A stretch of DNA of 64,000 nucleotides from Alphaproteobacteria bacterium (GCA_965228895.1 OZ245842.1:2048001-2112000); one strand, 5' to 3'. Shown: positions 3,642 to 20,036, counted from the first letter of the stretch. Notes: generated by a model from the sequence alone, not told the origin. A program made the numbers and translations.

Positions 3642-3794
3642 CTCCTAACTTATTGATGTTTATGGTTTAACAGGACTGCCTCGTACGCCGGGCGCTGGCG
3701 GCTTTTCTTTGCTGCGCCTGCTCGACACAATGCGCGGGCGCCGCTCCGGTTACGGGTGCGGACAAAAGAATGTCCAGAATGCGGGAGGCCAGAC

Positions 3795-4795: not shown

Positions 4796-5158
4796 GCGCG
4801 CATTTCTTGACAGACAACCTGACAGGACCGAACATTCGAGGGCAGAAAAACGCAACGTCTTCTGCCGTCGTGCCAAGGTTGGCCATGACAGGATGCCAAG
4901 CGGTCGGACATAGGTTTCGGCCCGGGGAATGGGGGAGGTTTGGCGGACACGGCCGCATCGTTGTTGACGTGCGAGTCACGTAGAGCAGGGGCTGAGATCT
5001 CCTGTCGCGATTGGTTGGTTCCCGAACCCGTCGGTTACCAGGCTTTTTATCGAAGCAGTGTTGTTTTGCAGCGGATGTTGCCGTTTTCGGCGACGCCCAC
5101 GCGTGCTGTCGCGTAGGCGTGCGCCTCCGTCAGCTCAACAGAGGGAGTGAAGAGCACC

Positions 5159-6247: not shown

Positions 6248-6285
6248 TCATCACATGCCCGCGACAAAAATAAGCGGCGGGGTCG

Positions 6286-7164
6286 ATGGCAAGTGAGAGC
6301 CATATGACGACAAAGGCCTCGGGCAGGGTGTGGAGCCCTGCCCGAGGTTACTTTGTGATCTTGTCGCTGCCGGTTCTGTTCCTGCTGCTGTTCTTCCTGT
6401 GGCCGCTGTTCACGGTGGTCACCCGCAGTTTCGGGGTCGACGAACCGTTCTTCGTCCATTTCCTGACCGTCTTCGAGCGCTCGTCCTATATCCGGGTCCT
6501 GGGCTACACCTTCCAGGTTGCCGCCACCGTAACCGTGCTGTGCCTCTTAATCGCCTACCCGGTGGCGGCCCTGATCGCGCGCCTTAAGGGTGGCTGGTTG
6601 CAGATTTCGTTTGCCCTCATCCTGGTGCCGTTCTGGACCAGCACGGTCATCCGCACCTATGCGTGGATGGTGCTGTTTCAACGCAAGGGCGTCATCAATG
6701 GGTTTCTGATCGATCTCGGCCTGGTCGATACGCCGTTAAGGCTGATGCACAACAACATCGGCGTGCATATCGGCATGGTGCACATCATGCTGCCCTTTAT
6801 GCTGCTGCCGTTGATCAGCGCGTTCCGCAACATCGATCCCAGCTACATGCGCGCCGCCGGCGTGCTCGGCGCCAATCCGATCCGTGCCTTCTGGCATGTC
6901 TATTTGCCGCTATCCATGCCGGGCGTCAGCGCCGGCGTGGCGCTGGTCTTCATCACCTCGCTAGGCTTCTACATCACACCGGCGCTATTGGGCGGCGCCC
7001 AGAACATGATGGTCGCCGTCCTGATCGAGCAGCAGGTCTCGATCACGGTGAACTGGGAACTGGCCTCCGCGCTGGCCTCGTTGTTGCTGATCCTGACCGT
7101 CGCGCTCTACATCGTTTATGACCGCGTGGCGCGCCGCGCGGGCGCCGGTGGGGTATTGGAATGA
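6286..7164 (+). CDS. ABC permease, PotB-like
   Basis: PFWTS..IRTYAW motif, EAA-like loop (AAGVLGA), TM segments. Confidence 0.92.
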   Translation: MASESHMTTKASGRVWSPARGYFVILSLPVLFLLLFFLWPLFTVVTRSFGVDEPFFVHFLTVFERSSYIRVLGYTFQVAATVTVLCLLIAYPVAALIARLKGGWLQISFALILVPFWTSTVIRTYAWMVLFQRKGVINGFLIDLGLVDTPLRLMHNNIGVHIGMVHIMLPFMLLPLISAFRNIDPSYMRAAGVLGANPIRAFWHVYLPLSMPGVSAGVALVFITSLGFYITPALLGGAQNMMVAVLIEQQVSITVNWELASALASLLLILTVALYIVYDRVARRAGAGGVLE

Positions 7165-7973
7165 CGCGGTGGGCGACGGCAGGGCGCGTTGCGAAGATCG
7201 TCATGATCGGGTTCGCGGCACTTGTGCTGCTCTATCTCGTCATGCCGACCTTCGTCATCGTGCCGATGTCGTTCTCCGACAAACTCTACCTGAGTTTCCC
7301 GCCGACCGAATGGTCGTTCCGCTGGTACGAGGCCATGGCCGATCGCGTCGACTACCCGCAGGCGCTGTGGAACAGCATCAAGATCGGTGTGCCCGTCGCG
7401 CTTCTGGCGACGACCTTCGGCACGTTGGCGGCGCTCGGCGTCGTGCGCGGCCGGTTTTTTGGCGCCCGTCCGATGTCCGCGCTTGTCATCGCACCTTTGA
7501 TGCTGCCCCAGATCATTCTGGCCATCGGCCTCTATCCGGTGATGGCGAAACTCGGCATGGCCGGCACCTATCCCGGTGTCGTGCTCGGCCATACGGTGAT
7601 CTGCATTCCACTTGTCTTCATCACCGTCGCGGCATCGTTGAAAGGCTACCACCCGGCCTATGAGTACGCGGCGATGACCATGGGCGCGGGGTGGTGGCGC
7701 ACGTTCTGGTACGTCACCTTTCCGATGATCCGGGTCGGCGTCATTGTCGGGGCGATCCTTTCCTTCACCTTCTCGTTCGACGAATTGATCATTGCGCTTT
7801 TCCTGACCAGTCCGGAGACCCGAACCTTGCCCCGCCTGTTGTGGGAAGACCTTCGCCAGTACGTCACGCCGATCATCGCGGCGGCGACCACTCTTGTCTT
7901 GTGTATCTCGTTCGCGCTGTTCGGCGCGCTCGCGGTTCTGCAAAAACGTATGCAACGGGACCAGACGCCATGA
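7161..7973 (+). CDS. ABC permease, PotC-like
   Basis: SFS..LSFPP, YEYAAMTMGA and SFDE motifs. Confidence 0.92.
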   Translation: MTRWATAGRVAKIVMIGFAALVLLYLVMPTFVIVPMSFSDKLYLSFPPTEWSFRWYEAMADRVDYPQALWNSIKIGVPVALLATTFGTLAALGVVRGRFFGARPMSALVIAPLMLPQIILAIGLYPVMAKLGMAGTYPGVVLGHTVICIPLVFITVAASLKGYHPAYEYAAMTMGAGWWRTFWYVTFPMIRVGVIVGAILSFTFSFDELIIALFLTSPETRTLPRLLWEDLRQYVTPIIAAATTLVLCISFALFGALAVLQKRMQRDQTP

Positions 7974-9049
7974 CCGGGCAGGGCGCGCGGATCGAATACC
8001 GGGACATCGCCAAGTCCTACGGGGCGGTACAGGCGCTGACGCCAACCACGCTCGATATCGAGCCTGGTGAGTTCTTCTCGATCATCGGACCCAGCGGTTC
8101 CGGCAAGACAACCCTGCTGGGCGTCACCGCCGGCTACATACCGCCCACCGGCGGGGAGATACTGGTCGACGGCAAGAACGTTGTCGGCGTGCCGCCGTTC
8201 CAGCGCAACATCGGCATGGTTTTTCAGAACTACGCGCTCTTCCCGCATATGAGTGTCGGTGACAACGTGGGTTTTGCGCTCAAGATGCGCGGTGTGCCGA
8301 AGTCAGAGGCCGCCGAGCGTGTCGCGCGCATGCTGGACCTGGTGCGTCTTGGCGACATGGCCAACCGCAGGCCGAGCCAGTTATCCGGCGGCCAGCAGCA
8401 GCGCGTCGCGTTGGCGCGCGCCGCCGTCTACGACCCGCTTTTGCTTCTCATGGATGAACCGTTGAGCGCGCTCGACAAGAACCTGCGCGAAGCCATGCAA
8501 GACGAGATCAAGCAGTTTCAGGCAGCGCTCGGCTCGACCGTGCTCTACGTCACCCATGATCAGGCCGAAGCGGCCGCGATGTCGCACCGGATCGCGATCA
8601 TGAATCATGGCCGTGTCGCTCAGGTCGGCTCGCCACGCGATCTCTACGAACATCCGGTCGACCGATTCGTCGCCAGCTTCCTCGGTGAAGCCAACCTTTT
8701 CGACCTGACCGAACTCACCGCCCACGGCAACGGTGCGCGCGCCGTGACGACCGAAGGATTTGTGCTGCATTCGGCCACGGCGCCCAACGGCGATGCCCAA
8801 TGCGCCTGCGTACGGCCGGAGACCGTCAACGTGTCCGATAGGCCGGTGGAAGCCGACAACAGCGTTGAGGGGCGGATCGTCGACGCAACGTATACGGCCG
8901 GCAGCCTGCGCTACCGCATCGAAATTGCGCCCGAGGTGATCATGACGAAGCGGACGCCGTCGGTCCGGGGCGAGGCATTGATGCCTGAAGGAACAAAGGT
9001 TCACGTCTCCTGGCGGGCCGAAGACACCTTGCTCGTGAACAACGACTAG
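7970..9049 (+). CDS. ABC ATP-binding protein, PotA-like
   Basis: Walker A GPSGSGKT, LSGGQQQR, LLMDEP, C-terminal TOBE-like domain. Confidence 0.95.
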   Translation: MTGQGARIEYRDIAKSYGAVQALTPTTLDIEPGEFFSIIGPSGSGKTTLLGVTAGYIPPTGGEILVDGKNVVGVPPFQRNIGMVFQNYALFPHMSVGDNVGFALKMRGVPKSEAAERVARMLDLVRLGDMANRRPSQLSGGQQQRVALARAAVYDPLLLLMDEPLSALDKNLREAMQDEIKQFQAALGSTVLYVTHDQAEAAAMSHRIAIMNHGRVAQVGSPRDLYEHPVDRFVASFLGEANLFDLTELTAHGNGARAVTTEGFVLHSATAPNGDAQCACVRPETVNVSDRPVEADNSVEGRIVDATYTAGSLRYRIEIAPEVIMTKRTPSVRGEALMPEGTKVHVSWRAEDTLLVNND

Positions 9050-9060
9050 GGAGCCAACAC

Positions 9061-9834
9061 ATGCCCTTCACCGACAAGAAGGCGGTGGTGACCGGCGGCG
9101 GCCGTGGCATGGGCCGCAGTCATGCCGAGGCATTTGCGGCACGCGGCGCTGCGGTGGGGGTCATCGACCTTGATGGCGCATTGGTTGATCAGGCGGTCGC
9201 CACGATCCGCGAAGCAGGAGGCGTTGCTCATGGTGTCAAATGCGACGTCGCCGACGTCGCCGCGATCACCGAGGCGATCGCAAGTCTTGAGCGGTCTCTG
9301 GGCGGCATCGACATTCTGGTGAACAACGCCGGTATCGATGAAATGCGCGATATCGAGGAGATCGATGAGGCGAGCTTTGACCGTATGTTCGGCGTGCACG
9401 TCAAGGGGACGTTCTTTGCGACCCGTGCCGCCGTGCCCGGCATGAAGGCGCGAGGTGCCGGCAAGATCGTCGTGACGGCCTCGACAGCAGGCATGACAGG
9501 GATTGCGGGTGACTCCCACTATTCAGGCGCTAAAGCGGCTTTGATGGGCTTGACCAAGGCGTGGGCTAAGGAGCTGGCGCCCTTCGGCATCCATGTCAAT
9601 GCGGTGGCGCCCGGCGCGACCATGACCGAGATGGTCATGACCAAACTGCCGACGCGCGAAGAATCCATGGCGCGTGTGCGCCAGCGCCTGGATGCGGGCG
9701 CGGTGCCGTTGGGTCGTTATGCGGATCCATCGGAGATAACCGCCGTCGTTTTGTTCCTGGCCTCCGACGAGGCAAGTTTTATCACCGGACAGGTCATCAG
9801 CCCCAATGGCGGCGAAGTGATCGTCGGTATCTAG
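9061..9834 (+). CDS. Short-chain dehydrogenase/reductase
   Basis: TGGGRGMG, NNAG and YSGAK catalytic motif. Confidence 0.95.
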   Translation: MPFTDKKAVVTGGGRGMGRSHAEAFAARGAAVGVIDLDGALVDQAVATIREAGGVAHGVKCDVADVAAITEAIASLERSLGGIDILVNNAGIDEMRDIEEIDEASFDRMFGVHVKGTFFATRAAVPGMKARGAGKIVVTASTAGMTGIAGDSHYSGAKAALMGLTKAWAKELAPFGIHVNAVAPGATMTEMVMTKLPTREESMARVRQRLDAGAVPLGRYADPSEITAVVLFLASDEASFITGQVISPNGGEVIVGI

Positions 9835-9850
9835 GCAAGGGAGAACTACC

Positions 9851-10933
9851 GTGGAACTCGGACTCTTTTCGCTTCAGACCCAGCGCGATGTCGCGAAGCC
9901 CATTAAGGAAGTCTACGACGAAACGATTGACCTCGTCCGTCTTGCCGAGGACATCGGTTTCGACACCGCCTGGTTGACCGAGCACCATTTCGGCAATTAC
10001 AGCATGTGCCCGTCACCGCTCATTATGGCGTCGAACCTGGCGGCGCTGACGACGCGCATCAAGCTGGGCATGGCCGTGCTGGTGCTGCCGCTCTACAACC
10101 CCCTGCGGGTGCTTGAAGAGATCGGCATGGTCGATCAGCTTTCCGACGGGCGTCTGGTGATCGGCTATGGCTCCGGCTATCAGGCCTTTGAGTTCGAGCG
10201 CTTCGGCCTCGACCTCGCCGAAAACTGGGCCATTACCCACGAGACCATGGACATTCTGGAGATGGGTATAGCCGAGGGGCGGGTCGCCTATGACGGCACG
10301 TACTACAAGATCCCGGAGACACCGATCGGCATTCCGGTGATGCAGAAACCGCATCCTGAGGTCTTTACGGCGGGCAACGAGCCGGCTTATCTCGCGCGGG
10401 CGGCCAAGGCCGGCTACATCCCCTTCGTTACCGTCGGCGGCAACGGCACCGATGCCTTGATTGCCGTGCGCGAACACATCGCCAAGAACTTCGCGCAGGC
10501 GGGCCAGACTGGTCCATTGCCGTTCGCCATCAACCGCTCGGTCTATGTCACGGACAGCAAGGACGATGCGCGCGATGTCGCCGAACGGGTGCTCTATACC
10601 GCGCGGCTGGTCATGGCGTTTCGCGGCGGTTACGAAAAACTCGACGGCATCGAGGTCATCCCGCAGCCTTATGAAAACGAGCCTGATCTCGACACGATTA
10701 TCGAGAACCTGCCGATCGGCGATCCGGAGAGCTGCGCCGAACAGATTGCAGGCGAAATCAAGGCGACCGGTGCTTGCCACTACAGCATGTTCGTCCAGTT
10801 CGGCGGCCTCGACCACAAGCGGGCGCGACGCTCATTGGAGCGAATTGGCGCCGAGGTCCTGCCGCTTGTCGACAAGGCTGTCGGTGGTCTGAAGGAGTTC
10901 GGTCCAAGTTCGGTTATGTCGGCGGCACGCTAG
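9851..10933 (+). CDS. Luciferase-like (LLM) flavin-dependent monooxygenase
   Basis: GFDTAWLTEHHF, PSP, TTRIKLG and SDGRL motifs. Confidence 0.92.
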   Translation: MELGLFSLQTQRDVAKPIKEVYDETIDLVRLAEDIGFDTAWLTEHHFGNYSMCPSPLIMASNLAALTTRIKLGMAVLVLPLYNPLRVLEEIGMVDQLSDGRLVIGYGSGYQAFEFERFGLDLAENWAITHETMDILEMGIAEGRVAYDGTYYKIPETPIGIPVMQKPHPEVFTAGNEPAYLARAAKAGYIPFVTVGGNGTDALIAVREHIAKNFAQAGQTGPLPFAINRSVYVTDSKDDARDVAERVLYTARLVMAFRGGYEKLDGIEVIPQPYENEPDLDTIIENLPIGDPESCAEQIAGEIKATGACHYSMFVQFGGLDHKRARRSLERIGAEVLPLVDKAVGGLKEFGPSSVMSAAR

Positions 10934-11056: not shown

Positions 11057-12763
11057 TCAGCAGTGGAGGATGGCGTCGGAAGCCTTTTCACCAATCATGA
11101 TGGTGGTCAGGTTGGTGTTGGCGCTGACGACGCTGGGCATGACCGAGGCGTCGGCGACGCGCAGCCCCTCGACACCAATCACCTTCAGGTCGGGATCGAC
11201 CACGCTGTTGGGATCGTCGGTGCGTCCGATGCGGCAGGTACAGCTGGCATGCCAGCTGCCGCAACCATGATCGCGCACCCAATCGCGCAGCGCGTTGTCA
11301 TCGGCAATCAGGCGATGCACGTCGATGCCCGGGCTGATGAACCGCGACATCATCTGACCACGCGTCAACGGGAAGTCGAGCAGAAGCGCCGCGGCCTTCG
11401 TCTTGAGCCAGTTGCTGGCCGAAACGACCGCGAGGTCGCGGGCCTTTTCGCTGAACGTCGACGGGAACATGCCTTTGACGCCGCCGCTGACGGCAGCGTT
11501 CGACATGAAGCGATAGGCGAGCCGCACGGCGTCGGCGAGCCGGTCGAGATCGCGGTCATCGGAAAACTGGTTGAAGTTGATGATGGGTTCGGCATCCGGC
11601 TCGCGCGCCTTCAACGTCACCTCGCCTTGCGAATACGGCTTGTTGACGCAAACGACAAAACCGCCGAGCAGATGGCCGAGCGGATGCCAACCGCCACGGT
11701 TGTTGGCCAGCGCAAACATATCGCCGGGTGCGCAGTCGGCATGGCCGGACGAGTACCTGAGGCCCAGGTGGATGTGCCGGCGCATGGAGGCAGGCATGCG
11801 CCAGGAGCGCTGGATGTGGCTCACCAAGGTCACGGTTGGGTGGTCTTGCAGGCCCTGGCCGACGCCCGGCCGGTCGGCGACCACGTCGATCCCATGTTGG
11901 CGCAAATGGTGGCCCGGCCCGATGCCCGAGCGCATCAGCATGGCGGGGCTGTGGAATGCGCCGCAGGAGACGACGACCTCGCGTGCGTCGACGGTGATGT
12001 CTTGATTGTCACGTCTGAGCGCGACGCCGGTTACGCGCTTGCCGTCGAAGAGCACGCGATCGACACGGCAATCCGGCCAAATCTCAAGGTTGGGTCGGGC
12101 CCGTGTCTCGGCATCGAGATAGGCAAGCGCCGTCGACACGCGGTGGCCGTCCGGACCGCCGGAGGGGTGGTTGTTGATGGCCATGGGAAACAGGCCGTCG
12201 TCGAACTCGCCGTTGTGATCGACAAGCTCTGTGAATCCGTGATCGAGCATGGCGTGGCGCGCGGCTTTGGCGAAACCCGGCCAATCGGGCTCGCGGATGC
12301 GGCGGATCGGCAGCGGCCCTTCCTTGCCATGCATGGCGCCGTCATAATCCAGGTCGGTTTCGCAGCGCCTGTAATAGGGAAGGACGTCGTCGAAACTCCA
12401 GCCGCTTGCACCGCGATCGACCCAGTCGTCGAAATCCCACGGCAGACCACGGATCGCCATCATGCCGTTGATGCTGGAGCCGCCGCCCATCAGCCGGGCC
12501 TGTTCGTAGCGCCGGGGTACGAAGGTCTCCGGCGCGTTGCTGCCCAAGCGTTCGTAGTGAACTCTCAAGTCACGCCAATGCCAGACCGAGTTGAAATAGG
12601 CGACGCTGGGATAAGCGTCGAGCACGGCAGGCGGCATGGCGCCCGGCGGTGTGTCGGTGCCGGCTTCCAGAAGCAACACGCGGTTATCGGAATGAGCCGA
12701 CAACCGGTTGGCCAGAACGGCGCCGGCCGACCCGCCCCCGACAACAACAAAATCGTGGGTCAA
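11057..12763 (-). CDS. GMC oxidoreductase (choline dehydrogenase-like)
   Basis: GGGSAG FAD motif, GGGSSINGM, SGIGP, LQDHP, WHASCTC, DASVMP..VSANTN. Confidence 0.93.
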   Translation of the reverse strand: MTHDFVVVGGGSAGAVLANRLSAHSDNRVLLLEAGTDTPPGAMPPAVLDAYPSVAYFNSVWHWRDLRVHYERLGSNAPETFVPRRYEQARLMGGGSSINGMMAIRGLPWDFDDWVDRGASGWSFDDVLPYYRRCETDLDYDGAMHGKEGPLPIRRIREPDWPGFAKAARHAMLDHGFTELVDHNGEFDDGLFPMAINNHPSGGPDGHRVSTALAYLDAETRARPNLEIWPDCRVDRVLFDGKRVTGVALRRDNQDITVDAREVVVSCGAFHSPAMLMRSGIGPGHHLRQHGIDVVADRPGVGQGLQDHPTVTLVSHIQRSWRMPASMRRHIHLGLRYSSGHADCAPGDMFALANNRGGWHPLGHLLGGFVVCVNKPYSQGEVTLKAREPDAEPIINFNQFSDDRDLDRLADAVRLAYRFMSNAAVSGGVKGMFPSTFSEKARDLAVVSASNWLKTKAAALLLDFPLTRGQMMSRFISPGIDVHRLIADDNALRDWVRDHGCGSWHASCTCRIGRTDDPNSVVDPDLKVIGVEGLRVADASVMPSVVSANTNLTTIMIGEKASDAILHC

Positions 12764-12767
12764 CGGG

Positions 12768-13727
12768 TCACCGGAACAGGAAACCGTCGGGAAGGGGATC
12801 GCAGTCCTCGACCATCAGGGTCGAGAACGCGCTCAGATAGGCTTCGCCGGCAACACGCGGACGTATGGCCGCGCGACCGTTTTCGTGGAGCACCTCATCG
12901 ATGCGACACCGGTAGTGCGCGCCCAGCACACTCTCCGCGATGAAGTCGTCGCCAACGTTGAGCTTGCCGGCGGCGTGCAGTGCGGCAAGGCGCGCACTGG
13001 TGCCGGTACCGCACGGCGATCGGTCGAACTTGTTGCTTTCCAAAACCACGAGGTGACGGGCATGTCTGTCATCGTCATCGCGAAAAAACAGGACCGAGCC
13101 GACCGGCTCGTCGACGGCTGCGTTGAGCGACGCCTTGATCGCGTTGCCCAAGCGGCAGAGTTCACCGGCGTTGTCGGGTTCGATGGGCCAGTTGCGCCCG
13201 GCCGTATCGACCAGCGCGAAGCGGCCGCCGCAGCAGGCTATGGTGGCGTCGACGGGGCCTATGCCATCGACGTCGACGGTTATGCCGTCAGTCTCGACAT
13301 AAGCAGGGACGTTGGCGATGGACGCGGTGACCGCACCGTCCATTGCTTTGCTCACGTCGACACCGACAATGCCGGCGGGTGTCTCCAAAGTGAAATGGCC
13401 TGGGCCGGATGTAAGATCGACTTGGCCGGTTGCCGCGAGCGTACGCGCAAGGCCGATGGTCGCATGGCCGCACATGTCGAGATAGACATAGGACGAGATG
13501 AAGAACGCACCGAAGTCGGCCTCACGGCTGTCGGTCATCACGGCGGCGACCATGGCCGCATGGCCGCGCGGCTCGTGTATCAACTGGCCCCGGAGACGGT
13601 CGTGGCGGGCCTTGAAATCGTCGCGACGCGCCAGCACGGTGTCGCCCTCCAACGGTGGCAACCCACCCATAATGGCGCGCGTCGGATGACCCACCGTGTG
13701 GGTGTCGATGACTTGAAAGGCCTGCAT
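12768..13727 (-). CDS. Proline racemase / hydroxyproline epimerase family protein
   Basis: EPRGH, DMCGH and DRSPCGTGT (two catalytic Cys). Confidence 0.92.
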   Translation of the reverse strand: MQAFQVIDTHTVGHPTRAIMGGLPPLEGDTVLARRDDFKARHDRLRGQLIHEPRGHAAMVAAVMTDSREADFGAFFISSYVYLDMCGHATIGLARTLAATGQVDLTSGPGHFTLETPAGIVGVDVSKAMDGAVTASIANVPAYVETDGITVDVDGIGPVDATIACCGGRFALVDTAGRNWPIEPDNAGELCRLGNAIKASLNAAVDEPVGSVLFFRDDDDRHARHLVVLESNKFDRSPCGTGTSARLAALHAAGKLNVGDDFIAESVLGAHYRCRIDEVLHENGRAAIRPRVAGEAYLSAFSTLMVEDCDPLPDGFLFR

Positions 13728-13824
13728 GGTTCTCCGATGCCGGCAAGCGGCGGTTCCACGGCAGGGTATGCTAAGGAGCCGCTACACATGGATCAAGGCA
13801 ACAAGCATGAGGGAGCAGGATTGC

Positions 13825-14607
13825 ATGCGTGAAAACAGGATTCGGAAGATTTGGGCCGAGGGCGGCACGGTCTTTAACGGCTGGCTGGCGACGCCCAGCA
13901 GCGTCACCGCCGAGGTCATGGCGCGCCAGGACTGGGACAGCGTCACAATCGACCTGCAGCATGGCCTGGTCGACTATCCCGCGGCTGTCACCATGCTGCA
14001 GGCGATCTCGCAGACCGACACGGTGCCGCTGGCGCGCGCGCCATGGAACGAGCCGGTCATGATCCAGAAGCTGCTGGATGCCGGCGCTTACGGCATCATC
14101 TGCCCGATGATCAACAGCCGCGAGGAGGCCGAGCGTTTTATCGGCGCGTGCCGCTATCACCCGGACGGCTACCGCAGTGTCGGTCCGATCCGTGCGGCCA
14201 TGTATGCCGGCGCTGATTACATCCCGAACGCCAACAAGACCGTCTTGGCATTGGCGATGATCGAGACGGCGCAGGCTGTCGAGCGGCTGGACGAAATCCT
14301 GACCACACCGGGTCTGGACGGCATCTTTGTCGGCCCGTCCGATCTATCGGTCAGCTTGGGCGAAGCGGCCGGCTTCGATCCTGAGTTTCCCGTCGTCATG
14401 CAGGCGATCGAAAAGATTGCCGAGCGTTGTCAACATCATGGCATACCCGCCGGCATCCATACGGGATCGGTCGCCTATGCGCTCAAGATGCAGGCGATGG
14501 GTTACTGCTTCATCACGCTGCTCAGCGAACTGCGTTTGATCCAGTGGGCCGCCGGCAATGCCATCGCGGCGTTCCGCGCCGGTGAGACGCAGGTCGATGC
14601 CCCTTAG
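13825..14607 (+). CDS. HpcH/HpaI class II aldolase
   Basis: IDLQHG, LDAGA, MIET and FVGPSDL motifs. Confidence 0.92.
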   Translation: MRENRIRKIWAEGGTVFNGWLATPSSVTAEVMARQDWDSVTIDLQHGLVDYPAAVTMLQAISQTDTVPLARAPWNEPVMIQKLLDAGAYGIICPMINSREEAERFIGACRYHPDGYRSVGPIRAAMYAGADYIPNANKTVLALAMIETAQAVERLDEILTTPGLDGIFVGPSDLSVSLGEAAGFDPEFPVVMQAIEKIAERCQHHGIPAGIHTGSVAYALKMQAMGYCFITLLSELRLIQWAAGNAIAAFRAGETQVDAP

Positions 14608-15865
14608 TGACGGGCCGGGTAGGGCCGGCCATGTCACCGTGGTCGGCGCCGGCATCGTCGGCATCTGTACGGCGAGCTGGCTGGTCCGCGCCGGCTTCGA
14701 CGTCACCGTGCTCGACGAGGATGAGCCGGGCATGCGGTGTTCGTTCGGCAACGCCGGGGGCATCTGTCCGGGCTCGTGCGTGCCGCTTGCTATGCCCGGT
14801 ATGGCACGCAAGGTGCCCGGCTGGCTGCTCGATCCGGAAGGTCCGTTGTTCATCCGGCTCGCTTATCTGCCGCGCGCGCTGCCGTGGCTGCTGCGCTTTG
14901 TGGCCGCCGGACGGCCAGACAGGATCGGCGCGATTGCCAATGCCATGCGCGCGCTCCACGAACCGACCATCGATCGCTACCGTTCACTGGTCGCGTGGGC
15001 GGGGTGCGAGTCCTTGCTGGTCGAGCGCGGCCAGCTCTTTCTCTACGAAAGCCAAGCGGAACTCGATGGCGACGCCCTTGGCCTGACGCTGCGCCGCGAA
15101 CGCGGCATCGAAGCAGAAGTTCTGTCGGCCGACGAACTACGTCAGTTGGAGCCCGCACTCGACCACCGCTTTCGCCACGCGGTCTTTCTGCCAGGTCAGG
15201 CGCAGTGCCTGAATCCCCACCGATTGGTGCGCGAACTTGCCGCCCAATTCGTTGCCGACGGTGGCCGTATCGATCGGTCGCGCGTGATGGCCTTTCATGC
15301 CCAAGACGGCGCGATTGAATCGCTGGAGACGGCGGATGGATCCCGCGGGGTCGAGACAGTCGTTCTGGCGGCAGGCGCCTGGTCGGCGAGGTTGTTGGCG
15401 ACCCTTGGAATCCGCGTGCCGCTGGAGGCCGAGCGGGGCTATCACGTTACGGTGGCCGCCGAGACTGACCGTGCGCCGCGTATCCAGGCGGCATGGTCGC
15501 GTCGCAAGTTTGTCGTCACACCACAGGAAGGTGGTATGCGCTTTGCCGGCACCGACGAATTCGCCGGTCTTGACGCGCCACCCGATGAAAGGCGCGCGAT
15601 GACCCTGTTGCGTCACGGGCGCGATATGGTGCCCGGGCTTGACGATGCGACCTACACGACATGGATGGGGCATCGTCCGGGAACGCCGGACAGCCTGCCG
15701 GTCATCGGCAGGGATCCGCGGTACGCCAACCTGATTCACGCCTATGGTCACGGCCATACCGGTTTGATGGGCGCATCGGTCACCGGTCACGTAATCGCCG
15801 ACATGTTGGCGGGCCATACGCCGGAGATCGACTTGGCCCCCTATGGCATTGAGCGTTTCAGCTGA
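14597..15865 (+). CDS. FAD-dependent D-amino acid dehydrogenase (DadA-like)
   Basis: GAGIVG, SFGNAG, ERGYH, WMGHRP..PDSLPVIG and YGHGHTG motifs. Confidence 0.9.
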   Translation: MPLSDGPGRAGHVTVVGAGIVGICTASWLVRAGFDVTVLDEDEPGMRCSFGNAGGICPGSCVPLAMPGMARKVPGWLLDPEGPLFIRLAYLPRALPWLLRFVAAGRPDRIGAIANAMRALHEPTIDRYRSLVAWAGCESLLVERGQLFLYESQAELDGDALGLTLRRERGIEAEVLSADELRQLEPALDHRFRHAVFLPGQAQCLNPHRLVRELAAQFVADGGRIDRSRVMAFHAQDGAIESLETADGSRGVETVVLAAGAWSARLLATLGIRVPLEAERGYHVTVAAETDRAPRIQAAWSRRKFVVTPQEGGMRFAGTDEFAGLDAPPDERRAMTLLRHGRDMVPGLDDATYTTWMGHRPGTPDSLPVIGRDPRYANLIHAYGHGHTGLMGASVTGHVIADMLAGHTPEIDLAPYGIERFS

Positions 15866-15871
15866 CCTTGG

Positions 15872-16714
15872 TCAGGTTGATCGTTGATAGGCAAGCGAAA
15901 CCGCTTGCGCGGCTTTCAGGATGATCGGCTTCAGATCGCGTCTCGCCTTCGCCAAGGTGAAATCGTCGACATCAACCGTTAGCGCGACGGCGGCCACGGG
16001 CTGATTGGCGTAATCGAACACAGGCGCGCCAAGCGCGATGGCGCGGGGATGACACGCGCGATCGGTCAGGCTGTAGCCGAGTTCGCGGGTCTGCGACATC
16101 GCCGCCATGATGGCGTCCGTTTCGACAATCGTATGTTTGGTGATCGGGAGCCGTGGGCTGGTGGCGATCAGGTCGAAGGCGCTGCGTTGGGGCATGAAGG
16201 CCAGAATTGCCAGACCGGTTGGCGAACAGAAGGCCGGTTCGCGTACGCCCACCGACGGACCCTTCACCAACGAGAGTCGCTTTTCGGCCCCGGCCATGCT
16301 GATCAGGACGACACATTCGTTACCGTTGAGCACGCTCAACTCGAGCTGATGACCGCATTCGTCGGAAACATTCTGCAGAATAGGGAAGGCGCACGTGACC
16401 AGGGGGTCGTTGCCCAGATAGGCAACCGACCAGCTCAACACCTTGGACGAAAGCCTGTAGTGTCGGGTTCGCCGGTCCTGTACCAGATAGCCGGCGCTGA
16501 CCAGTGTCGTCAGAAGCCGTCGCGCGCCGCTGATCTCCAGACCGCTTAGCTGGACGATTTCGGTGAGCGACAGCTCACGGTGTCCAACGTCGAAGCACTC
16601 CATCACCCGCAAACCCTTAAGGAGGGTCTTGGCGAGGTTCGACGATGAGGGTCTACCGGGACCCAAGTCAGGCTCTAGCGTCAGGTCGGGCACGTTGTTC
16701 TCCGCAATTGTCAT
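15872..16714 (-). CDS. IclR family transcriptional regulator
   Basis: N-terminal HTH (LSLTEIVQLSGL...LLTTL..GYL) and effector domain with LGYS and ALGAPVFD. Confidence 0.9.
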   Translation of the reverse strand: MTIAENNVPDLTLEPDLGPGRPSSSNLAKTLLKGLRVMECFDVGHRELSLTEIVQLSGLEISGARRLLTTLVSAGYLVQDRRTRHYRLSSKVLSWSVAYLGNDPLVTCAFPILQNVSDECGHQLELSVLNGNECVVLISMAGAEKRLSLVKGPSVGVREPAFCSPTGLAILAFMPQRSAFDLIATSPRLPITKHTIVETDAIMAAMSQTRELGYSLTDRACHPRAIALGAPVFDYANQPVAAVALTVDVDDFTLAKARRDLKPIILKAAQAVSLAYQRST

Positions 16715-16726
16715 TATGTGACAATC
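16707..16726. promoter_or_regulatory. Palindromic operator ATTGTCA-N5-TGACAAT, copy 2, overlapping iclR start
   Basis: attgtcattatgtgacaatc is a perfect 7-bp inverted repeat at the divergent iclR/glmL junction. Confidence 0.75.
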
Positions 16727-16848
16727 ATAGTGCATATTTGTTGCGATGTCTCGGCTGCGGACCTAGCCTTTTGAACCGCAATGCCGCCTGCGTTGCGGCT
16801 GGGGGTTGTGTCCAGGCGTCCGATATTCGGGCTGACACGGGAGCTGAC

Positions 16849-18288
16849 GTGACAAACGCGAGGCGGACCAAGGATAGGGCTGACGTGTTCCTCAGCGGGG
16901 AACGTAGCTGGAGCCGTGGCCTTCTGATCGATGTGGGCTCGACGTTCACCAAGGTCATGGTGATCGCGCCAAGTGGCGCGATGGTGGGACGCGCACAAGC
17001 CCCGACGACGATTGACGATGATGTGATGGAGGGGGTCACCGCTGCCCTCGGCCACCTGCCTGAGGACGCGCGCGACGACATCGACTGGGCGCTTGCCTCA
17101 AGCAGCGCGGCGGGCGGCCTGCGTATGGCGTCGGTCGGGCTGACCGCCAATCTGTCCGGTCGTGCCGGCGCGTTGGCGGCGTTCGGTGCCGGCGCCAAGG
17201 TGATCGCCAACGAACATGGCTTCTTGGATGACGAGGCCGTCGGCAGGATCGATGCGGAAACGCCCCATCTCGTGCTGTTGTCCGGCGGTTTAGACGGCGG
17301 CAACCGAGAGGCGCTGCTGCACAATGCCCGCAAGTTGACGGCGCTGAAGTCGGCGCGCGGGTTCATCGTCGCGGGCAATGTCGACGCTGCCGGCGAAGCC
17401 GATGCTTTGCTCAAAGTTGGCGACCGCGACGTGCGTGTCGTCGATAACGTCTTCCCACGTGCCGGCGAGATCGCGATGACCGCGACACGCGAGGCTGTGC
17501 GCGACCTCTTTTTGCAACACATCACCCAAGCCAAGGGCCTGGATGGCCTGATGGAGACTTTCGCGACGGAATGCGAACCGACTCCCCTGGCGGTCAGCCG
17601 CGCTCTCGCGCATCTGCCCGGGGAGGGCGGGCCGGTGGTGTTTGTCGATTTGGGTGGTGCGACGACCGACGTGCACTCGTTGGGCGGCGTCCGTGACGAC
17701 CACAGAGCGGTCGAAGTGCCCGATCCCGAAGTGATGCGCACGGTCGAAGGCGACTTGGGCATGCGTTGGGGCGCACCGGGTACGGTCGGTGCCATGTCAT
17801 CGGCCGACAGAGCCGCCGCTGAGGCAGTCCTGGGCTGTGATCTCGAACGAGAGGCCGACAAGCGGCGTGAGTCGCCGTCCTTTTTGCCTCAGACCGACCA
17901 TGACCGCGCCGTCGACCGTGTCTTGGCCCAGGCTGGGGTCGCGACGGCGATCGAGCGCCATGCCGGCAAGGTGGTCGTCCGCCATCGGCCGTGGGGCGAC
18001 CGCTATCAGGTGACGGGCAAGGATCTTCGCCAGACGCGGATGCTGGTCGCGACCGGCGGTGCGTTTCGCTATGGCCGTGACCCCCACTTGATGGTCTGTA
18101 CGGCCCTCGATGCGATTGAAGGCGCCCAGTCGCCACGCACCCCGGCCATCGCCATCGACAATGCCTATGCCCTCTATGTCATCGGCTTGCTCGCCCGCCT
18201 GGCGCCGGACTTGGCGCGACAGGTTGCGGCCCAAGCCATCGTTACGCCCAATCCATCAAGCCGACATCAGGAGGCACGCGCATCATGA
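16849..18288 (+). CDS. GlmL/MutL-like ASKHA protein (B12 mutase reactivating/accessory factor)
   Basis: IDVGSTFTK, SSSAAGGLRM, LLSGGLDGGN, VDLGGATTDVHS and RTVEGDLGMR motifs of the glutamate mutase MutL family; start codon uncertain. Confidence 0.85.
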   Translation: MTNARRTKDRADVFLSGERSWSRGLLIDVGSTFTKVMVIAPSGAMVGRAQAPTTIDDDVMEGVTAALGHLPEDARDDIDWALASSSAAGGLRMASVGLTANLSGRAGALAAFGAGAKVIANEHGFLDDEAVGRIDAETPHLVLLSGGLDGGNREALLHNARKLTALKSARGFIVAGNVDAAGEADALLKVGDRDVRVVDNVFPRAGEIAMTATREAVRDLFLQHITQAKGLDGLMETFATECEPTPLAVSRALAHLPGEGGPVVFVDLGGATTDVHSLGGVRDDHRAVEVPDPEVMRTVEGDLGMRWGAPGTVGAMSSADRAAAEAVLGCDLEREADKRRESPSFLPQTDHDRAVDRVLAQAGVATAIERHAGKVVVRHRPWGDRYQVTGKDLRQTRMLVATGGAFRYGRDPHLMVCTALDAIEGAQSPRTPAIAIDNAYALYVIGLLARLAPDLARQVAAQAIVTPNPSSRHQEARAS

Positions 18289-20036
18289 CAGGCAAACTTG
18301 AAGCCTATCTTCCCCAGGATTGTCCTGACGGTCTGGCCTTGCTCGAAGAAGGTCGGCGGCTCGGCGATGACGTCACGGTGGGTCGCAGCCTTCTGTGCGA
18401 AACCCATGGCGTTCGTTCGGAGGTCGAATACAAAAAGAAAATGGTCGAGGAGGGGCGCCTGATGACGTCCCTCAACATCGGCATGCAGACCTGGGCCGAT
18501 ACCGCCCGTGCGTTTGAGAAGATCTGGGACGAATCGGACAGACGTGGCTTTCGCATTGACCGCTATCAAATGCAGATGGATCGGCGTATGGGCCTGCCGC
18601 CTGAGCTTTGGGACCGCGCGGCCAAGGAGACCGGTCCGATGCTGGAAACCAAGGAGGACTGGTACGCGACCGCCCACACGGTGCCGATCCAGCCGCAGCT
18701 TGGCGACATGATGATCGGCTCGCCCATGTCGGTCAGCAACGCGCGCAACGCACTTGAGGCCGGCGTCAACTATATCGGCAACATGTCGCAGTTTGCCTGG
18801 AAGTATCCGGGCTGGCCGGGCGACGATGTCGAGCAGATGGCTGAAATGGTCAAGGCCTTGGGCCTGATGGCGGCCAAGCGCGACGACGACGCGATGATGC
18901 AGTCCTATCTGGAAGACGGCTATCCCGCGACCTTCAAGGACTATTGCTCCTATATCGGCTGGGCGCTCTTTGAGCGTTACCTTATCGATGACGTGATCGG
19001 TGCGCGCCTGTCGATCGCCTATGGCGGCCTGACCCACAATCCGGTCAGCAAGACAGCGGTGATCCTGGCGCTTGAGAAGATTAAGCCGGAAGGCACGTAC
19101 AACTCTTTCTATCATTGCAACACGACGGCCCATTCGCCGGAGATCGACGAGAACTTTGCCGTCGTCTCAATCGATGACCTCTACATCATGTTGGCCCAGC
19201 TCAAGACCAAGAGCGGCGCGGCCACGTTGTCGATCCCCGTTACAGAAGCGCTACGTGTGCCGTCCTGGGAAGAAATCGTTCAGGTTCAAACGGTCGCTCA
19301 TCGAGTCGCGCGCGACGCGCCACGGCTGATGGAGAGTTTCAATTGGGATCATATCGAGGCGATCAGCGAACGCATGATCGATGGCGGGCGCCGATTCTAC
19401 GCCAACATTTTGGAAGGCCTCACCGATCTGGGTGTCGACATGCGCGATCCCATGCAGCTCCTGCTGACGATCCGCCGCATGGGCGCGGCGACGATCGAGA
19501 ATCGTTGGGGTGTCGGCGAACTGCCGATATCGGATGCGGAAATGTATGTGCCGGAAGTGCCGACCGATACCTATCTCGACTATGTCGAACGGCGTTCGCG
19601 GGTCAAAAAGATTTTCAGCTCGGCGGGCATTCCCAAAAAGGAGCAGATCAGGCTCGTGGTCGGCTCCACCGACATCCATGAGTACGCGATGTTCCTCATC
19701 GTCGAGGGACTCACCATGGCCGGCATTCAGCCGGTTGTTGCCGGCACCAGTGTCGATCCCGATGAGTTTGCCGATTTAGCGCTGGAAGCGGGCGCCACGG
19801 CGATCCTGGTCTCGACCCACAACGGCATGGCGTTGACCTATGCGCGGCAATTGCATGACGAGGTTGTTGCCCGCGACCTCGATGTGACCATCGCGATGGG
19901 CGGCACGCTCAATCAAGATGTCGATGGCGAATCGACGCCGGTGGACGTTAAGGACGACCTGCGCGCGATGGGCGTCCACGTTTGCAGCGATGTCTCCGAT
20001 CTCTTGAACCTGATCGGCGCGACGTCACCAAGTTAG
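18285..20036 (+). CDS. Cobalamin-dependent protein: uncharacterised N-terminal domain plus C-terminal B12-binding domain
   Basis: C-terminal GSTDIHEYA (DxH), ILVSTHNG and IAMGG Rossmann pattern; coupled to glmL by ATGA overlap. Confidence 0.8.
   Translation: MTGKLEAYLPQDCPDGLALLEEGRRLGDDVTVGRSLLCETHGVRSEVEYKKKMVEEGRLMTSLNIGMQTWADTARAFEKIWDESDRRGFRIDRYQMQMDRRMGLPPELWDRAAKETGPMLETKEDWYATAHTVPIQPQLGDMMIGSPMSVSNARNALEAGVNYIGNMSQFAWKYPGWPGDDVEQMAEMVKALGLMAAKRDDDAMMQSYLEDGYPATFKDYCSYIGWALFERYLIDDVIGARLSIAYGGLTHNPVSKTAVILALEKIKPEGTYNSFYHCNTTAHSPEIDENFAVVSIDDLYIMLAQLKTKSGAATLSIPVTEALRVPSWEEIVQVQTVAHRVARDAPRLMESFNWDHIEAISERMIDGGRRFYANILEGLTDLGVDMRDPMQLLLTIRRMGAATIENRWGVGELPISDAEMYVPEVPTDTYLDYVERRSRVKKIFSSAGIPKKEQIRLVVGSTDIHEYAMFLIVEGLTMAGIQPVVAGTSVDPDEFADLALEAGATAILVSTHNGMALTYARQLHDEVVARDLDVTIAMGGTLNQDVDGESTPVDVKDDLRAMGVHVCSDVSDLLNLIGATSPS

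What the first reader, a model, noticed from the sequence alone, without database searches (positions are those of the whole stretch)
16849..20036. GlmL/MutL partnered with an orphan single-chain B12 enzyme
Known: GlmL/MutL normally sits with glutamate/methylaspartate mutase or ornithine aminomutase genes. Seen: here it is translationally coupled to a 583-aa protein with a C-terminal DxH B12 domain. I cannot match its N-terminal domain to MutE, methylmalonyl-CoA mutase or the aminomutases. Inference: an uncharacterised adenosylcobalamin-dependent mutase or eliminase acting in the neighbouring catabolic pathway.
Basis: partly seen in the sequence, partly recalled or inferred. Interest (0 to 1): 0.72.

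Follow-up and report, generated by a model that had tools for sequence, protein, structure and literature searches.

The report
Unassigned B12 mutase with GlmL chaperone
A repair-chaperone gene (GlmL) is coupled to a single-chain vitamin-B12 radical enzyme that shares only its fold with glutamate mutase and belongs to a conserved family of unknown reaction, so it may catalyse a B12 rearrangement that has not yet been described.

Summary
GlmL (16849-18288) overlaps by ATGA a 583-aa gene (18285-20036) preceded by AGGAGG.

**What the 583-aa protein is**
- Pfam and NCBIfam recognise only a weak C-terminal B12-binding domain.
- The AlphaFold model (pLDDT 90.8) is a TIM barrel plus Rossmann domain.
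- The tail is closest to GlmS, with a DxH His-on motif.
- It fails the sequence tests for MutE, the aminomutases and methylmalonyl-CoA mutase.

**Family and context**
- It belongs to a conserved, unnamed family of about 580 aa.
- GlmL is adjacent in 20 of 49 informative loci, including 12 of 12 close orthologues.
- A complex model docks GlmL on the cobalamin face (ipSAE 0.83, best control 0.00).
- The gene stays beside an ABC importer, SDR, luciferase-like, Pro-racemase-type, GMC, aldolase and D-amino-acid-dehydrogenase cluster across 54-80% identity.
- Class III aminotransferases recur elsewhere.

**Reading**
It is most likely an adenosylcobalamin isomerase for an amino or imino acid. The substrate is unknown. 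Comparison with 2-methyleneglutarate mutase could not be made. Earlier notes of this scan (e1-1392940, e1-1422571) describe what appears to be the same family on other DNA.

The parts
16849..18288 (+). GlmL/MutL-family accessory protein (479 aa), predicted ATPase and chaperone of the mutase
   Evidence: It matches Pfam MutL at 396.9 bits and TIGR01319 at 230.1 bits (cut-off 204.05). DxGSTFxK (D28-K35) and DxGGATTD (D267-D274) are invariant in 19 GlmL sequences. The GTG start is shared with L003. It is the only PF13941 match above the family cut-off in this genome.
18269..18288 (+). Translational coupling signal: AGGAGG at 18269-18274, then ATGA where the mutase start overlaps the GlmL stop
   Evidence: Read directly from the sequence.
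18285..20036 (+). Single-chain B12 enzyme (583 aa) of an unnamed family
18285..19604 (+). N-terminal catalytic TIM barrel with helical cap (about residues 1-440)
19632..20033 (+). C-terminal Rossmann-type cobalamin-binding domain (about residues 450-583) with D463xH465, S510-T-H-N-G514 and G539-G540
15872..16735 (-). Divergent IclR-family regulator (the true start may lie further in than the ORF call)
   Evidence: Pfam HTH_IclR and IclR_C match. An orthologue lies in the same divergent position in L003, L004, L005, L007, L033 and L035.
16707..16744 (.). Conserved intergenic block: palindrome ATTGTCA-N5-TGACAAT followed by CATAGTGCATATTTGTTGC, a candidate operator and promoter of the GlmL-mutase operon
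   Evidence: The inverted repeat is perfect, 7+7 bases. The block recurs with few changes upstream of GlmL in all six orthologous loci examined (L003, L004, L005, L007, L033, L035), whose proteins are 61-91% identical. That it binds IclR is inferred.
14558..15865 (+). FAD-dependent D-amino-acid-dehydrogenase-type oxidoreductase (DAO family)
   Evidence: Pfam DAO scores 223.7 bits and NF001933 scores 236.8 bits, below its cut-off of 383. It is syntenic in L004, L005, L013, L033 and L035.
13726..14607 (+). HpcH/HpaI class II 4-hydroxy-2-oxoacid aldolase
   Evidence: Pfam gives 104.8 bits. The best solved relative is the hydroxyketoacid aldolase 6r62, E 1.6e-59. It is syntenic in L005, L013, L033 and L035.
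12768..13727 (-). Proline-racemase-family epimerase with a Cys/Cys catalytic pair
   Evidence: Pfam Pro_racemase scores 283.7 bits. MCGH and SPCGTG align with the two catalytic cysteines of solved racemases. It lies directly upstream of the mutase gene in L011, L012 and L014.
11057..12763 (-). GMC flavoprotein oxidoreductase
   Evidence: Pfam GMC N and C domains match. The best solved relative is 5-(hydroxymethyl)furfural oxidase, E 6.8e-118.
9851..10933 (+). Luciferase-like flavin monooxygenase
   Evidence: Pfam Bac_luciferase scores 208.1 bits. It is syntenic in L005, L011, L012, L014, L033 and L035.
9061..9834 (+). Short-chain dehydrogenase/reductase
   Evidence: An SDR lies directly upstream of the mutase gene in L013 and in G500.
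5147..9049 (+). ABC importer: binding protein 5147-6247, permeases 6286-7164 and 7161-7973, and an ATPase ending at 9049
   Evidence: The binding protein's best solved relatives are 4i1d (E 6.3e-53), a GABA-sensor scaffold (E 8.9e-50) and 4eq7 (E 1.4e-45), followed by mannopine and agropine binders. It is syntenic in L012, L013 and L014, and more distant copies lie in L040 and L041.

Best explanation
A two-gene operon sits divergent from an IclR regulator and behind a conserved palindromic operator. It encodes a single-chain, base-off/His-on adenosylcobalamin radical isomerase of an uncharacterised family, together with its GlmL-type ATPase chaperone. The enzyme is a GlmE/KamD-like TIM barrel fused, in barrel-then-B12 order, to a GlmS-like cobalamin domain. 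By analogy with enzymes of this fold, substrate binding in the barrel would trigger homolysis of the Co-C bond. The 5'-deoxyadenosyl radical would abstract a hydrogen, a neighbouring group would shift by one carbon, and the hydrogen would be returned. GlmL would dock on the cobalamin face of the Rossmann domain and use ATP to release damaged cofactor or to load fresh adenosylcobalamin. The substrate is most likely a small amino or imino acid, not a CoA ester and not glutamate. It would be produced in the adjacent pathway: uptake by a GABA/opine-type ABC system, epimerisation by a Cys/Cys proline-racemase-type enzyme, oxidation by a D-amino-acid dehydrogenase, and later an SDR step and cleavage by an HpcH aldolase. 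Shown here: gene structure, fold, cofactor motifs, family membership tests, synteny and the predicted docking. Inferred: cofactor form, radical chemistry, the role of GlmL, the substrate class and the order of pathway steps.
For: **Fold**
- The model has pLDDT 90.8.

**Cofactor motifs**
- D463, H465, T511-H-N-G514 and G539-G540 are invariant in 34 members.
- They align with the DxH, SxL and GG regions of solved mutase B12 domains.
- D/H at these positions is kept in 35-36 of 38 superfamily sequences.
- The genome encodes CobO and CobN.

**GlmL partnership**
- The genes overlap by ATGA and the mutase has a Shine-Dalgarno sequence.
- GlmL is adjacent in 20 of 49 informative loci: 12 of 12 at 74% identity or more, 3 of 9 at 55-74%, 1 of 21 at 45-55%, and 4 of 7 at 29-45%.
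- In G500 the order is reversed, B12 gene then GlmL.
- The complex model scores ipSAE 0.84, 0.83 and 0.82, against a best control of 0.00. That mark was reached by 116 of 157 solved complexes and 2 of 215 mismatched pairs. The runs share at least 95% of contacts and the partner's pLDDT is at least 87.
- The interface covers mutase residues 462-463, 484-503 and 513-519, which is the cobalamin-binding face. It also covers the invariant GlmL motifs around G146-G151 and N200-P203.

**Pathway link**
- The mutase gene lies beside the same LLM, Pro-racemase, GMC, HpcH and DAO genes in L005, L033 and L035 (77-80% identity).
- The same holds, in a rearranged order and without GlmL or IclR, in L011-L014 (54-55% identity). 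That is 7 of the 14 loci at 54% identity or more that have at least 4 kb upstream.

**Amino-compound theme**
- Class III aminotransferases flank the gene in L009, L010, L034, L040, L043 and the actinobacterial loci.
- The barrel resembles the amino-acid mutases more than the CoA mutases.
Against: - No biochemical datum exists. Cofactor binding, radical chemistry and the role of GlmL are all inferred.
- Pfam's B12-binding match is below its gathering score (26.5 against 32.1), and the motif reads DxHxxA, not DxHxxG, in this subfamily.
- GlmL is missing from most family loci (29 of 49). It is also missing from 5 of 5 whole genomes checked (these are MAGs of unknown completeness). A chaperone is therefore not obligatory.
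- Neighbourhoods differ widely between clades: 3-oxoacid CoA-transferase, thiolase, enoyl-CoA hydratase and acyl-CoA ligase in L040-L042; hydantoinase in L024; an M14 peptidase in acI actinobacteria; aconitase X and CoA-transferase III in Dehalococcoidia. Neither the substrate class nor the exclusion of CoA esters is secure.
- Half of the loci with enough upstream DNA (7 of 14) lack the window-type cluster.
- I could not map active-site residues.
- The complex score used my own alignments, so its calibration holds only roughly.
Confidence: 0.68

Rival explanations
1. It is a divergent, fused glutamate (methylaspartate) mutase that interconverts L-glutamate and 3-methylaspartate, with GlmL as its usual partner.
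Against: The protein gives no match to Pfam MutE PF06368 at E<=0.1, whereas two genuine proteobacterial MutE proteins score 441-472 bits. Those genuine fusions are in the opposite order, with the B12 domain first. The MutS equivalogs score 43.7 and 28.1 bits against cut-offs of 110 and 135.8. The profile-profile comparison aligns only the B12 domain. The genome has no methylaspartate ammonia-lyase above the family cut-off. GlmL itself is below the glutamate-mutase GlmL equivalog cut-off (359.9 against 475).
Confidence: 0.07
2. It is an orthologue or close relative of 2-methyleneglutarate mutase (Mgm) of Eubacterium barkeri, the one known single-chain B12 mutase with an N-terminal catalytic part and a C-terminal B12 domain.
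For: Mgm has the same overall architecture and a similar size, about 614 aa. This is recalled from Beatrix et al. 1994; I saw only its entry in the reference list of PMC2667541. No structure of Mgm appeared among the fold-search hits, so those searches could not show it.
Against: No gene of the nicotinate fermentation route was seen among the annotated neighbours in any locus. That route comprises methylitaconate isomerase, dimethylmalate dehydratase and dimethylmalate lyase; the partner list is recalled. A 2009 survey detected Mgm in none of the genomes it examined (passage read in PMC2667541), whereas this superfamily occurs in 15 of 401 genomes of the class sampled here. The hosts are aerobic-type alphaproteobacteria and actinobacteria with amino-compound clusters. 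No sequence comparison could be made.
Confidence: 0.07
3. It is a PLP-dependent aminomutase of the lysine 5,6- or ornithine 4,5-aminomutase kind, moving a terminal amino group of an omega- or beta-amino acid.
Against: There is no Pfam match to the aminomutase families, and OraE scores 19.8 bits against a cut-off of 800. No lysine is invariant or nearly invariant in the Rossmann domain of 34 members. In KamE and OraE the lysine that holds PLP sits in that domain (recalled). No lysine is conserved across the 38-sequence superfamily alignment.
Confidence: 0.15
4. It is not a radical isomerase but a corrinoid protein used for methyl transfer or light/B12 sensing, with a barrel that is a methyltransferase-like module.
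Confidence: 0.03

Closest known systems
Glutamate mutase (GlmE/MutE barrel, GlmS/MutS B12 subunit, GlmL/MutL accessory protein) of clostridia
   Different: Barrel identity is 11%. There is no MutE Pfam match and no profile-profile alignment of the barrel. The protein is one chain in barrel-then-B12 order, whereas the two proteobacterial MutE fusions found here have the B12 domain first. The genome has no methylaspartase. The neighbours are an epimerase, a D-amino-acid dehydrogenase and an aldolase, not the mesaconate route.
Lysine 5,6-aminomutase (KamD/KamE) and ornithine 4,5-aminomutase (OraS/OraE)
   Different: There is no sequence-family match. No conserved lysine is present in the Rossmann domain to hold PLP. 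No small S subunit gene was seen next to the gene.
2-Methyleneglutarate mutase of Eubacterium barkeri
   Same: It is a single chain of about 600 aa with an N-terminal catalytic part and a C-terminal B12 domain (recalled, not tested).
   Different: No sequence was available for comparison. The genomic context here shows no nicotinate fermentation genes.
Methylmalonyl-CoA mutase family (MCM, ICM, HCM, ECM)
   Same: The overall two-domain arrangement matches. Foldseek ranks MCM chains first on the whole model (E 1.1e-13). The B12 domain profile matches 2yxb and 4r3u_C.

Membership tests
GlmL/MutL accessory protein family | Full-length match to Pfam PF13941 and NCBIfam TIGR01319 above their cut-offs | tested here: met
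   The scores are 396.9 bits (cut-off 27) over profile positions 2-448 of 450, and 230.1 bits (cut-off 204.05).
GlmL/MutL accessory protein family | Equivalog of the glutamate-mutase GlmL (NF040745) or of the ornithine-pathway GlmL-related protein (NF040744) | tested here: not met
   The scores are 359.9 bits against a cut-off of 475, and 267.6 against 600. It is a family member but not an equivalog of either characterised context.
GlmL/MutL accessory protein family | Intact nucleotide-binding motifs of the actin/Hsp70-like ATPase fold (the motif assignment is recalled) | tested here: met
   D28-x-G30-S-T-F-x-K35 and D267-x-G-G-A-T-T-D274 are invariant in 19 sequences. ATP hydrolysis itself was not tested.
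Base-off/His-on adenosylcobalamin isomerases | TIM barrel plus Rossmann-type B12 domain | tested here: met
Base-off/His-on adenosylcobalamin isomerases | DxHxxG, SxL and GG cobalamin-binding fingerprint | tested here: met
   D463-I-H465-E-Y-A468 carries Ala in place of Gly in this subfamily, whereas Gly is present in most of the superfamily. S510-T-H-N-G514 and G539-G540 are also present. These regions align to GlmS and to MCM-type domains.
Base-off/His-on adenosylcobalamin isomerases | Binds adenosylcobalamin and forms substrate-triggered radicals | not testable with these tools
   This needs purified protein with UV-visible and EPR spectroscopy.
Glutamate mutase (MutE/MutS) | Sequence membership of the catalytic subunit (Pfam PF06368) | tested here: not met
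   There is no match at E<=0.1. Genuine MutE proteins score 441.4 and 472.5 bits. hhalign aligned only the B12 domain, with probability 6%.
Glutamate mutase (MutE/MutS) | B12 subunit equivalog (NF002612 / TIGR01501) | tested here: not met
   The scores are 43.7 bits against 110, and 28.1 against 135.8.
Glutamate mutase (MutE/MutS) | Substrate-binding arginine triad and glutamate of GlmE (recalled from the crystal structure papers) | tested here: inconclusive
   No residue-level alignment could be obtained, and no model coordinates reach the scripts. The family does have invariant R58, R93, R100 and R101 early in the barrel.
Glutamate mutase (MutE/MutS) | Methylaspartate ammonia-lyase present to use the product | tested here: not met
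   PF07476 gives only a 24.5-bit match, below the cut-off of 27, in a genome that is 98.7% complete.
PLP-dependent B12 aminomutases (KamDE, OraSE) | Sequence membership (Pfam Lys-AminoMut_A / OAM families; NCBIfam OraE) | tested here: not met
   There is no Pfam match at E<=0.1. OraE scores 19.8 bits against 800, on the B12 tail only.
PLP-dependent B12 aminomutases (KamDE, OraSE) | Conserved lysine in the Rossmann domain forming the internal aldimine with PLP (recalled) | tested here: not met
   No invariant or nearly invariant lysine lies between residues 440 and 583 in 34 members.
2-Methyleneglutarate mutase | Sequence similarity to the E. barkeri enzyme | not tested
   No sequence was obtainable.
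Methylmalonyl-CoA mutase family | Pfam PF01642 catalytic domain | tested here: not met
   The 583-aa protein gives no match. The genome's two true members lie elsewhere.

The most novel reading that the evidence does not exclude
The family is a new adenosylcobalamin aminomutase or ammonia-lyase type that works on free beta-, omega- or imino acids without the lysine-bound PLP of the known aminomutases. One concrete form is the gene for an orphan B12-dependent 2,3-aminomutase activity such as leucine 2,3-aminomutase (EC 5.4.3.7). That activity was reported decades ago with no gene ever assigned (recalled). Its product would be transaminated by the recurrent class III aminotransferases to a 3-oxoacid. 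The 3-oxoacid would then be handled by the CoA-transferase, thiolase or acetoacetate-decarboxylase-like genes seen next to family members. In the window's own cluster the substrate could instead be the ring-opened imino acid made by the epimerase and the D-amino-acid dehydrogenase, with the rearranged product ending at the HpcH aldolase.
Probability: 0.12. Interest if true: 0.85.

Novelty: new variant of a known kind. Interest (0 to 1): 0.6.

Why it matters
Only about a dozen adenosylcobalamin-dependent rearrangements are known, and each new one has taught new radical chemistry. This family has the full B12-isomerase apparatus, but by every test run here it fits none of the characterised enzymes.

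It is conserved across Alphaproteobacteria, abundant freshwater actinobacteria, a Mycolicibacterium MAG and Dehalococcoidia MAGs. It sits in catabolic clusters for amino compounds.

This locus is a good experimental entry point for several reasons:
- The genome is a single 5.5-Mb contig, 98.7% complete.
- The enzyme comes with its own chaperone and regulator.
- The genome encodes CobO and CobN, which points to its own B12 supply.
- The flanking cluster narrows the choice of substrate.

The predicted docking of GlmL on the cobalamin face also offers a testable model for GlmL. To my knowledge (recalled) its function has never been shown biochemically, even for glutamate mutase.

Tried and rejected
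**Sequence searches**
- A search of the PDB with the protein and with the family profile matched only the B12 domain.
- The profile-profile comparison with two MutE fusions aligned only the B12 domain, so active-site residues could not be mapped.

**Fold searches**
- Neither fold search listed ethanolamine ammonia-lyase or diol dehydratase among its 50 rows. That absence is not evidence against eliminase chemistry.

**Literature**
- Six searches found no paper on this family. The first was wasted on a term that matched unrelated words.
- The paper on the E. barkeri nicotinate cluster is not held (its id was confirmed from a reference list).

- A second Atlas search, on the barrel alone, could not be run.

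**Ideas dropped**
- CoA-ester substrate. The genome's own paralogue (35% identical) lies next to a second crotonyl-CoA carboxylase/reductase homologue. That adjacency was seen at 0 of 12 other paralogue places, so I dropped it as a guide to substrate class.
- Cobalamin riboswitch. Rfam found only a tRNA in the window.
- Promoters and terminators. The consensus scans were at chance level.

**Caveat on gene calling**
- My GC3-based gene picker mis-called some genes; for example it took the antisense strand of the mutase gene in L005. The synteny counts therefore rest on tblastn with labelled reference proteins. That method cannot see families absent from my reference set.
Full report
**1. Observation**

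Two co-directional ORFs fill the flagged interval.

- The first ORF is 16849-18288, with a GTG start, and encodes 479 aa.
  - It matches Pfam MutL (PF13941) over profile positions 2-448 of 450, at 396.9 bits.
  - It matches NCBIfam TIGR01319 (GlmL family) at 230.1 bits, above the cut-off of 204.05.
  - It stays below the equivalog cut-offs for the glutamate-mutase GlmL (359.9 against 475) and for the ornithine-pathway relative (267.6 against 600).
- The second ORF is 18285-20036 and encodes 583 aa.
  - Its ATG overlaps the GlmL stop as ATGA, and AGGAGG lies 10 bases upstream.
  - Pfam sees only a sub-threshold B12-binding domain at residues 461-542 (26.5 bits against 32.1). NCBIfam sees only sub-threshold MutS and OraE matches in the same tail. 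Nothing matches residues 1-450.
  - The motif D463-I-H465-E-Y-A468 is present.

**2. A conserved family, not an orphan**

- The word-indexed search found 265 proteins at E<=0.001. The best 120 are 53-100% identical, and nearly all are 574-607 aa long. Their sources call them 'hypothetical', 'cobalamin-dependent protein' or 'methylmalonyl-CoA mutase cobalamin-binding subunit'.
- An alignment of 34 members (A1) has 64% mean column identity and about 100 invariant positions.
- A profile search of 1.84 billion cluster representatives gave 772 hits at E<=0.001 and 175 at E<=1e-30.
- Thirty-five full-length representatives share only 25-60% identity with the window's protein. Even so, they keep D211, E405 and, in at least 35 of 38 sequences, D219, E230, T280, N290, E321 and the D463/H465 pair.
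- In a sample of 401 genomes of the same class, 15 carry a superfamily member at E<=1e-40. All of them except the window's own copy are 41% identical or less.
- The genome has a second, 35%-identical copy elsewhere.

**3. Fold**

- AlphaFold2 on A1 gave pLDDT 90.8 and pTM 0.90: an eight-stranded beta/alpha barrel with a helical cap (residues 1-440) and a Rossmann domain (450-583).
- Foldseek ranked methylmalonyl-CoA mutases first on the whole chain (E 1.1e-13).

|---|---|---|
| Glutamate mutase GlmE (barrel) | 26.7 | rmsd 3.6, 365 of 483 residues aligned, 11% identity |
| Lysine 5,6-aminomutase KamD (barrel) | 24.6-24.8 | |
| Ornithine aminomutase OraE | 20.7 | |
| MCM beta chain | 19-21 | |
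| Unrelated barrels (IspG, dihydropteroate synthase) | 16 or below | |
| GlmS (tail) | 15.7 | 22% identity |

- A family profile matches solved mutase B12 domains by sequence (2yxb at E 5.5e-7), with DxH, the S-x-L-type loop and GG in register.
- The barrel is beyond sequence detection. Two genuine proteobacterial MutE proteins score 441-472 bits on PF06368, where this protein scores nothing. hhalign aligned only the B12 domains.
- Those genuine MutE fusions carry the B12 domain first, which is the opposite order.

**4. GlmL partnership**

I collected 24 loci from species-representative genomes and 48 from metagenomes. I mapped labelled reference proteins on them with tblastn. Two duplicate records (L073, L050) were dropped, as were 15 loci with too little flanking DNA. 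GlmL lies next to the mutase gene in 20 of the 49 loci that remain.

| Identity to the window's protein | Loci with adjacent GlmL |
|---|---|
| 74% or more | 12 of 12 |
| 55-74% | 3 of 9 |
| 45-55% | 1 of 21 (a Mycolicibacterium MAG) |
| 29-45% | 4 of 7 |

- A relative in the same taxonomic family (G500) has the order SDR, mutase (41% identical), GlmL.
- GlmL is nevertheless dispensable. Five of five genomes whose copy lacks an adjacent GlmL have no PF13941 match anywhere (these are MAGs of unknown completeness). In the class sample only 2 of the 15 genomes with a superfamily member also have GlmL.
- The genome in hand has a single GlmL above the family cut-off.
- A complex prediction used mutase residues 34-583 and GlmL residues 23-470.
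  - It scored ipSAE 0.84, 0.83 and 0.82 in three runs, against 0.00 for the best of three controls.
  - That mark was reached by 116 of 157 solved complexes and 2 of 215 mismatched pairs.
  - The runs share at least 95% of contacts, and the partner's pLDDT is at least 87.
  - The counts hold only roughly because my own alignments were used.
- The confident contacts on the mutase lie almost wholly in the Rossmann domain. They include S462-D463 of the His-on loop, residues 484-503 and N513-Y519.
- On GlmL the contacts include the invariant G146-G151 and N200-P203 stretches.
- I know of no solved GlmL-mutase complex (recalled), so the pass is unlikely to be memory of a structure.
- The model supports binding but does not show it.

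**5. Link to the neighbouring pathway**

Upstream of the divergent IclR gene lie the following genes:
- a D-amino-acid-dehydrogenase-type flavoprotein;
- an HpcH aldolase whose best solved relative is a hydroxyketoacid aldolase;
- a proline-racemase-family protein that keeps both catalytic cysteines, so it is an epimerase and not a dehydratase;
- a GMC oxidoreductase closest to HMF oxidase;
- a luciferase-like monooxygenase;
- an SDR;
- an ABC importer whose binding protein is closest to 4i1d, a GABA-sensor scaffold and 4eq7, ahead of mannopine and agropine binders.

The same genes flank the mutase gene in L005, L033 and L035 (77-80% identity). In four Hyphomicrobiaceae MAG loci (L011-L014, 54-55% identity) GlmL and IclR are absent. 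There the mutase gene directly follows the epimerase or an SDR gene, in two different gene orders. Persistence through that much divergence and rearrangement argues that the enzyme works in this pathway. The cluster is present in 7 of the 14 loci at 54% identity or more that have at least 4 kb upstream. The other seven have other neighbours.

**6. Other contexts**

- Class III aminotransferases lie next to the gene in L009, L010, L034, L040 (two of them, one HemL-like), L043 and many acI actinobacterial loci. In those acI loci an M14/AstE-like hydrolase, a class II amidotransferase-like gene and a LIV-type ABC system also occur.
- L040 adds a two-subunit 3-oxoacid CoA-transferase.
- L041 and L042 add an amidohydrolase, enoyl-CoA hydratase, CoA-transferase III or acyl-CoA ligase, and thiolase.
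- L013, L014 and L066 have an acetoacetate-decarboxylase-family gene directly downstream.
- L024 has hydantoinase A/B, aldehyde dehydrogenase and an aminotransferase.
- L037 has an ectoine-hydrolase-like M24 protein.
- The Dehalococcoidia copies sit with CoA-transferase III, aconitase X, an M24 peptidase and another proline-racemase homologue.

The common thread is the metabolism of non-alpha amines, imino acids and 3-oxoacids. No single substrate follows from it.

**7. Mechanism proposed**

- Shown: operon structure, fold, cofactor motifs, a cobalamin adenosyltransferase (CobO) and CobN in the genome, synteny and the predicted docking.
- Inferred, confidence about 0.68: the enzyme binds adenosylcobalamin base-off/His-on through H465. 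It performs a radical 1,2-rearrangement of a small amino or imino acid generated by the adjacent epimerase and dehydrogenase steps. GlmL uses ATP to exchange inactivated cofactor at the Rossmann domain.
- A specific route that fits the window's cluster runs as follows. The imported imino or amino acid is epimerised and then oxidised to the 2-oxo/cyclic imine form. The B12 enzyme rearranges or deaminates it to a 4-substituted 2-oxoacid. An SDR step follows, and the aldolase cleaves the product to pyruvate plus an aldehyde. I give this route no more than about 0.1.

**8. Regulation**

A perfect palindrome, ATTGTCA-N5-TGACAAT (16707-16725), and the following 19 bases are conserved upstream of GlmL in all six orthologous loci examined, whose proteins are 61-91% identical. 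This is probably the IclR operator and promoter. It lies inside the first codons of the IclR ORF as mechanically called, so the regulator probably starts further in.

**9. Comparison with what is known**

- The system works like glutamate mutase with GlmL, and like the B12 aminomutases. It fails the sequence-membership tests of each (see Membership tests).
- It lacks the methylaspartase needed for a glutamate mutase route.
- It lacks a conserved Rossmann-domain lysine for PLP.
- The one known enzyme with the same single-chain layout, 2-methyleneglutarate mutase, could not be compared. I give that possibility 0.07.
- Six literature searches found no description of the family.
- Earlier notes of this scan describe what appears to be the same family on other DNA (e1-1392940 and e1-1422571). 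They reached the same fold-level conclusion. I treated them as leads only.

**10. Verdict**

This is a real and well-defined locus. It encodes an uncharacterised variant of the B12 isomerase kind, with a dedicated chaperone and a conserved catabolic context. Its interest is moderate to high because the reaction is unknown and testable. It is limited by the lack of any substrate assignment and by the untested Mgm comparison.

Noticed in passing
G000:C1:1559866-1564584 (L002; wider view L082), outside the window: A 596-aa paralogue of the B12 enzyme (35% identical) lies in an operon with a second crotonyl-CoA carboxylase/reductase homologue (TIGR01751, 541.9 bits, cut-off 378.55). The canonical ccr plus MCM-family mutase pair sits at about 4.716-4.719 Mb. 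The Ccr adjacency was seen at 0 of 12 other paralogue places in the class.
   Followed up: partly
L025:10943-10945 (same record as L073): The Dehalococcoidia homologue has an in-frame TGA at the codon that aligns with R324, an arginine kept in most of the superfamily. The cause could be a CGA-to-TGA nonsense change, an assembly error or recoding.
   Followed up: partly
L031:1474-3405 (-) and L032:1477-4080 (-): The only two genuine MutE genes found in 301 genomes of the phylum are fusions with the B12 domain in front of the MutE barrel. In L031 the gene lies between an AMP-binding enzyme and an Orn/DAP-type decarboxylase, which suggests a biosynthetic rather than a fermentative role.
   Followed up: no
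window 16707-16744: A conserved palindrome and adjacent block lie between the IclR and GlmL genes. They overlap the first codons of the IclR ORF as called, so that ORF's start is probably wrong.
   Followed up: partly
L076:13601-14503 and L077:13322-14224; L077:7341-8483; L078:4292-5440: In the 34-36% identical clade that also has GlmL, a PdxS (PLP synthase) gene lies about 1.9 kb downstream of the B12 gene in L076. L077 has an ORF of the same length at the matching position, which was not scanned. Rieske oxygenase genes lie upstream in L077 and L078, with a reductase gene in L078 as well.
   Followed up: no
window 3756-4736 (+): A choline-kinase/APH-type kinase gene gives its best NCBIfam match to the guanitoxin kinase GntI (144 bits, cut-off 357). 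It was not found next to the B12 gene in any other locus.
   Followed up: no
window 55-1650 (+): The cystathionine gamma-synthase match begins only at about residue 157-170 of the 531-aa ORF. Either the start is mis-called or there is an N-terminal extension.
   Followed up: no
window 3551-3638 (+): A tRNA gene is the only Rfam match at gathering score in the window. No cobalamin riboswitch was found.
   Followed up: no
window 20098-20754 (-): A 218-aa ORF directly downstream of the B12 gene has no Pfam match. It is conserved in L003 at 58% identity over 189 aa.
   Followed up: no
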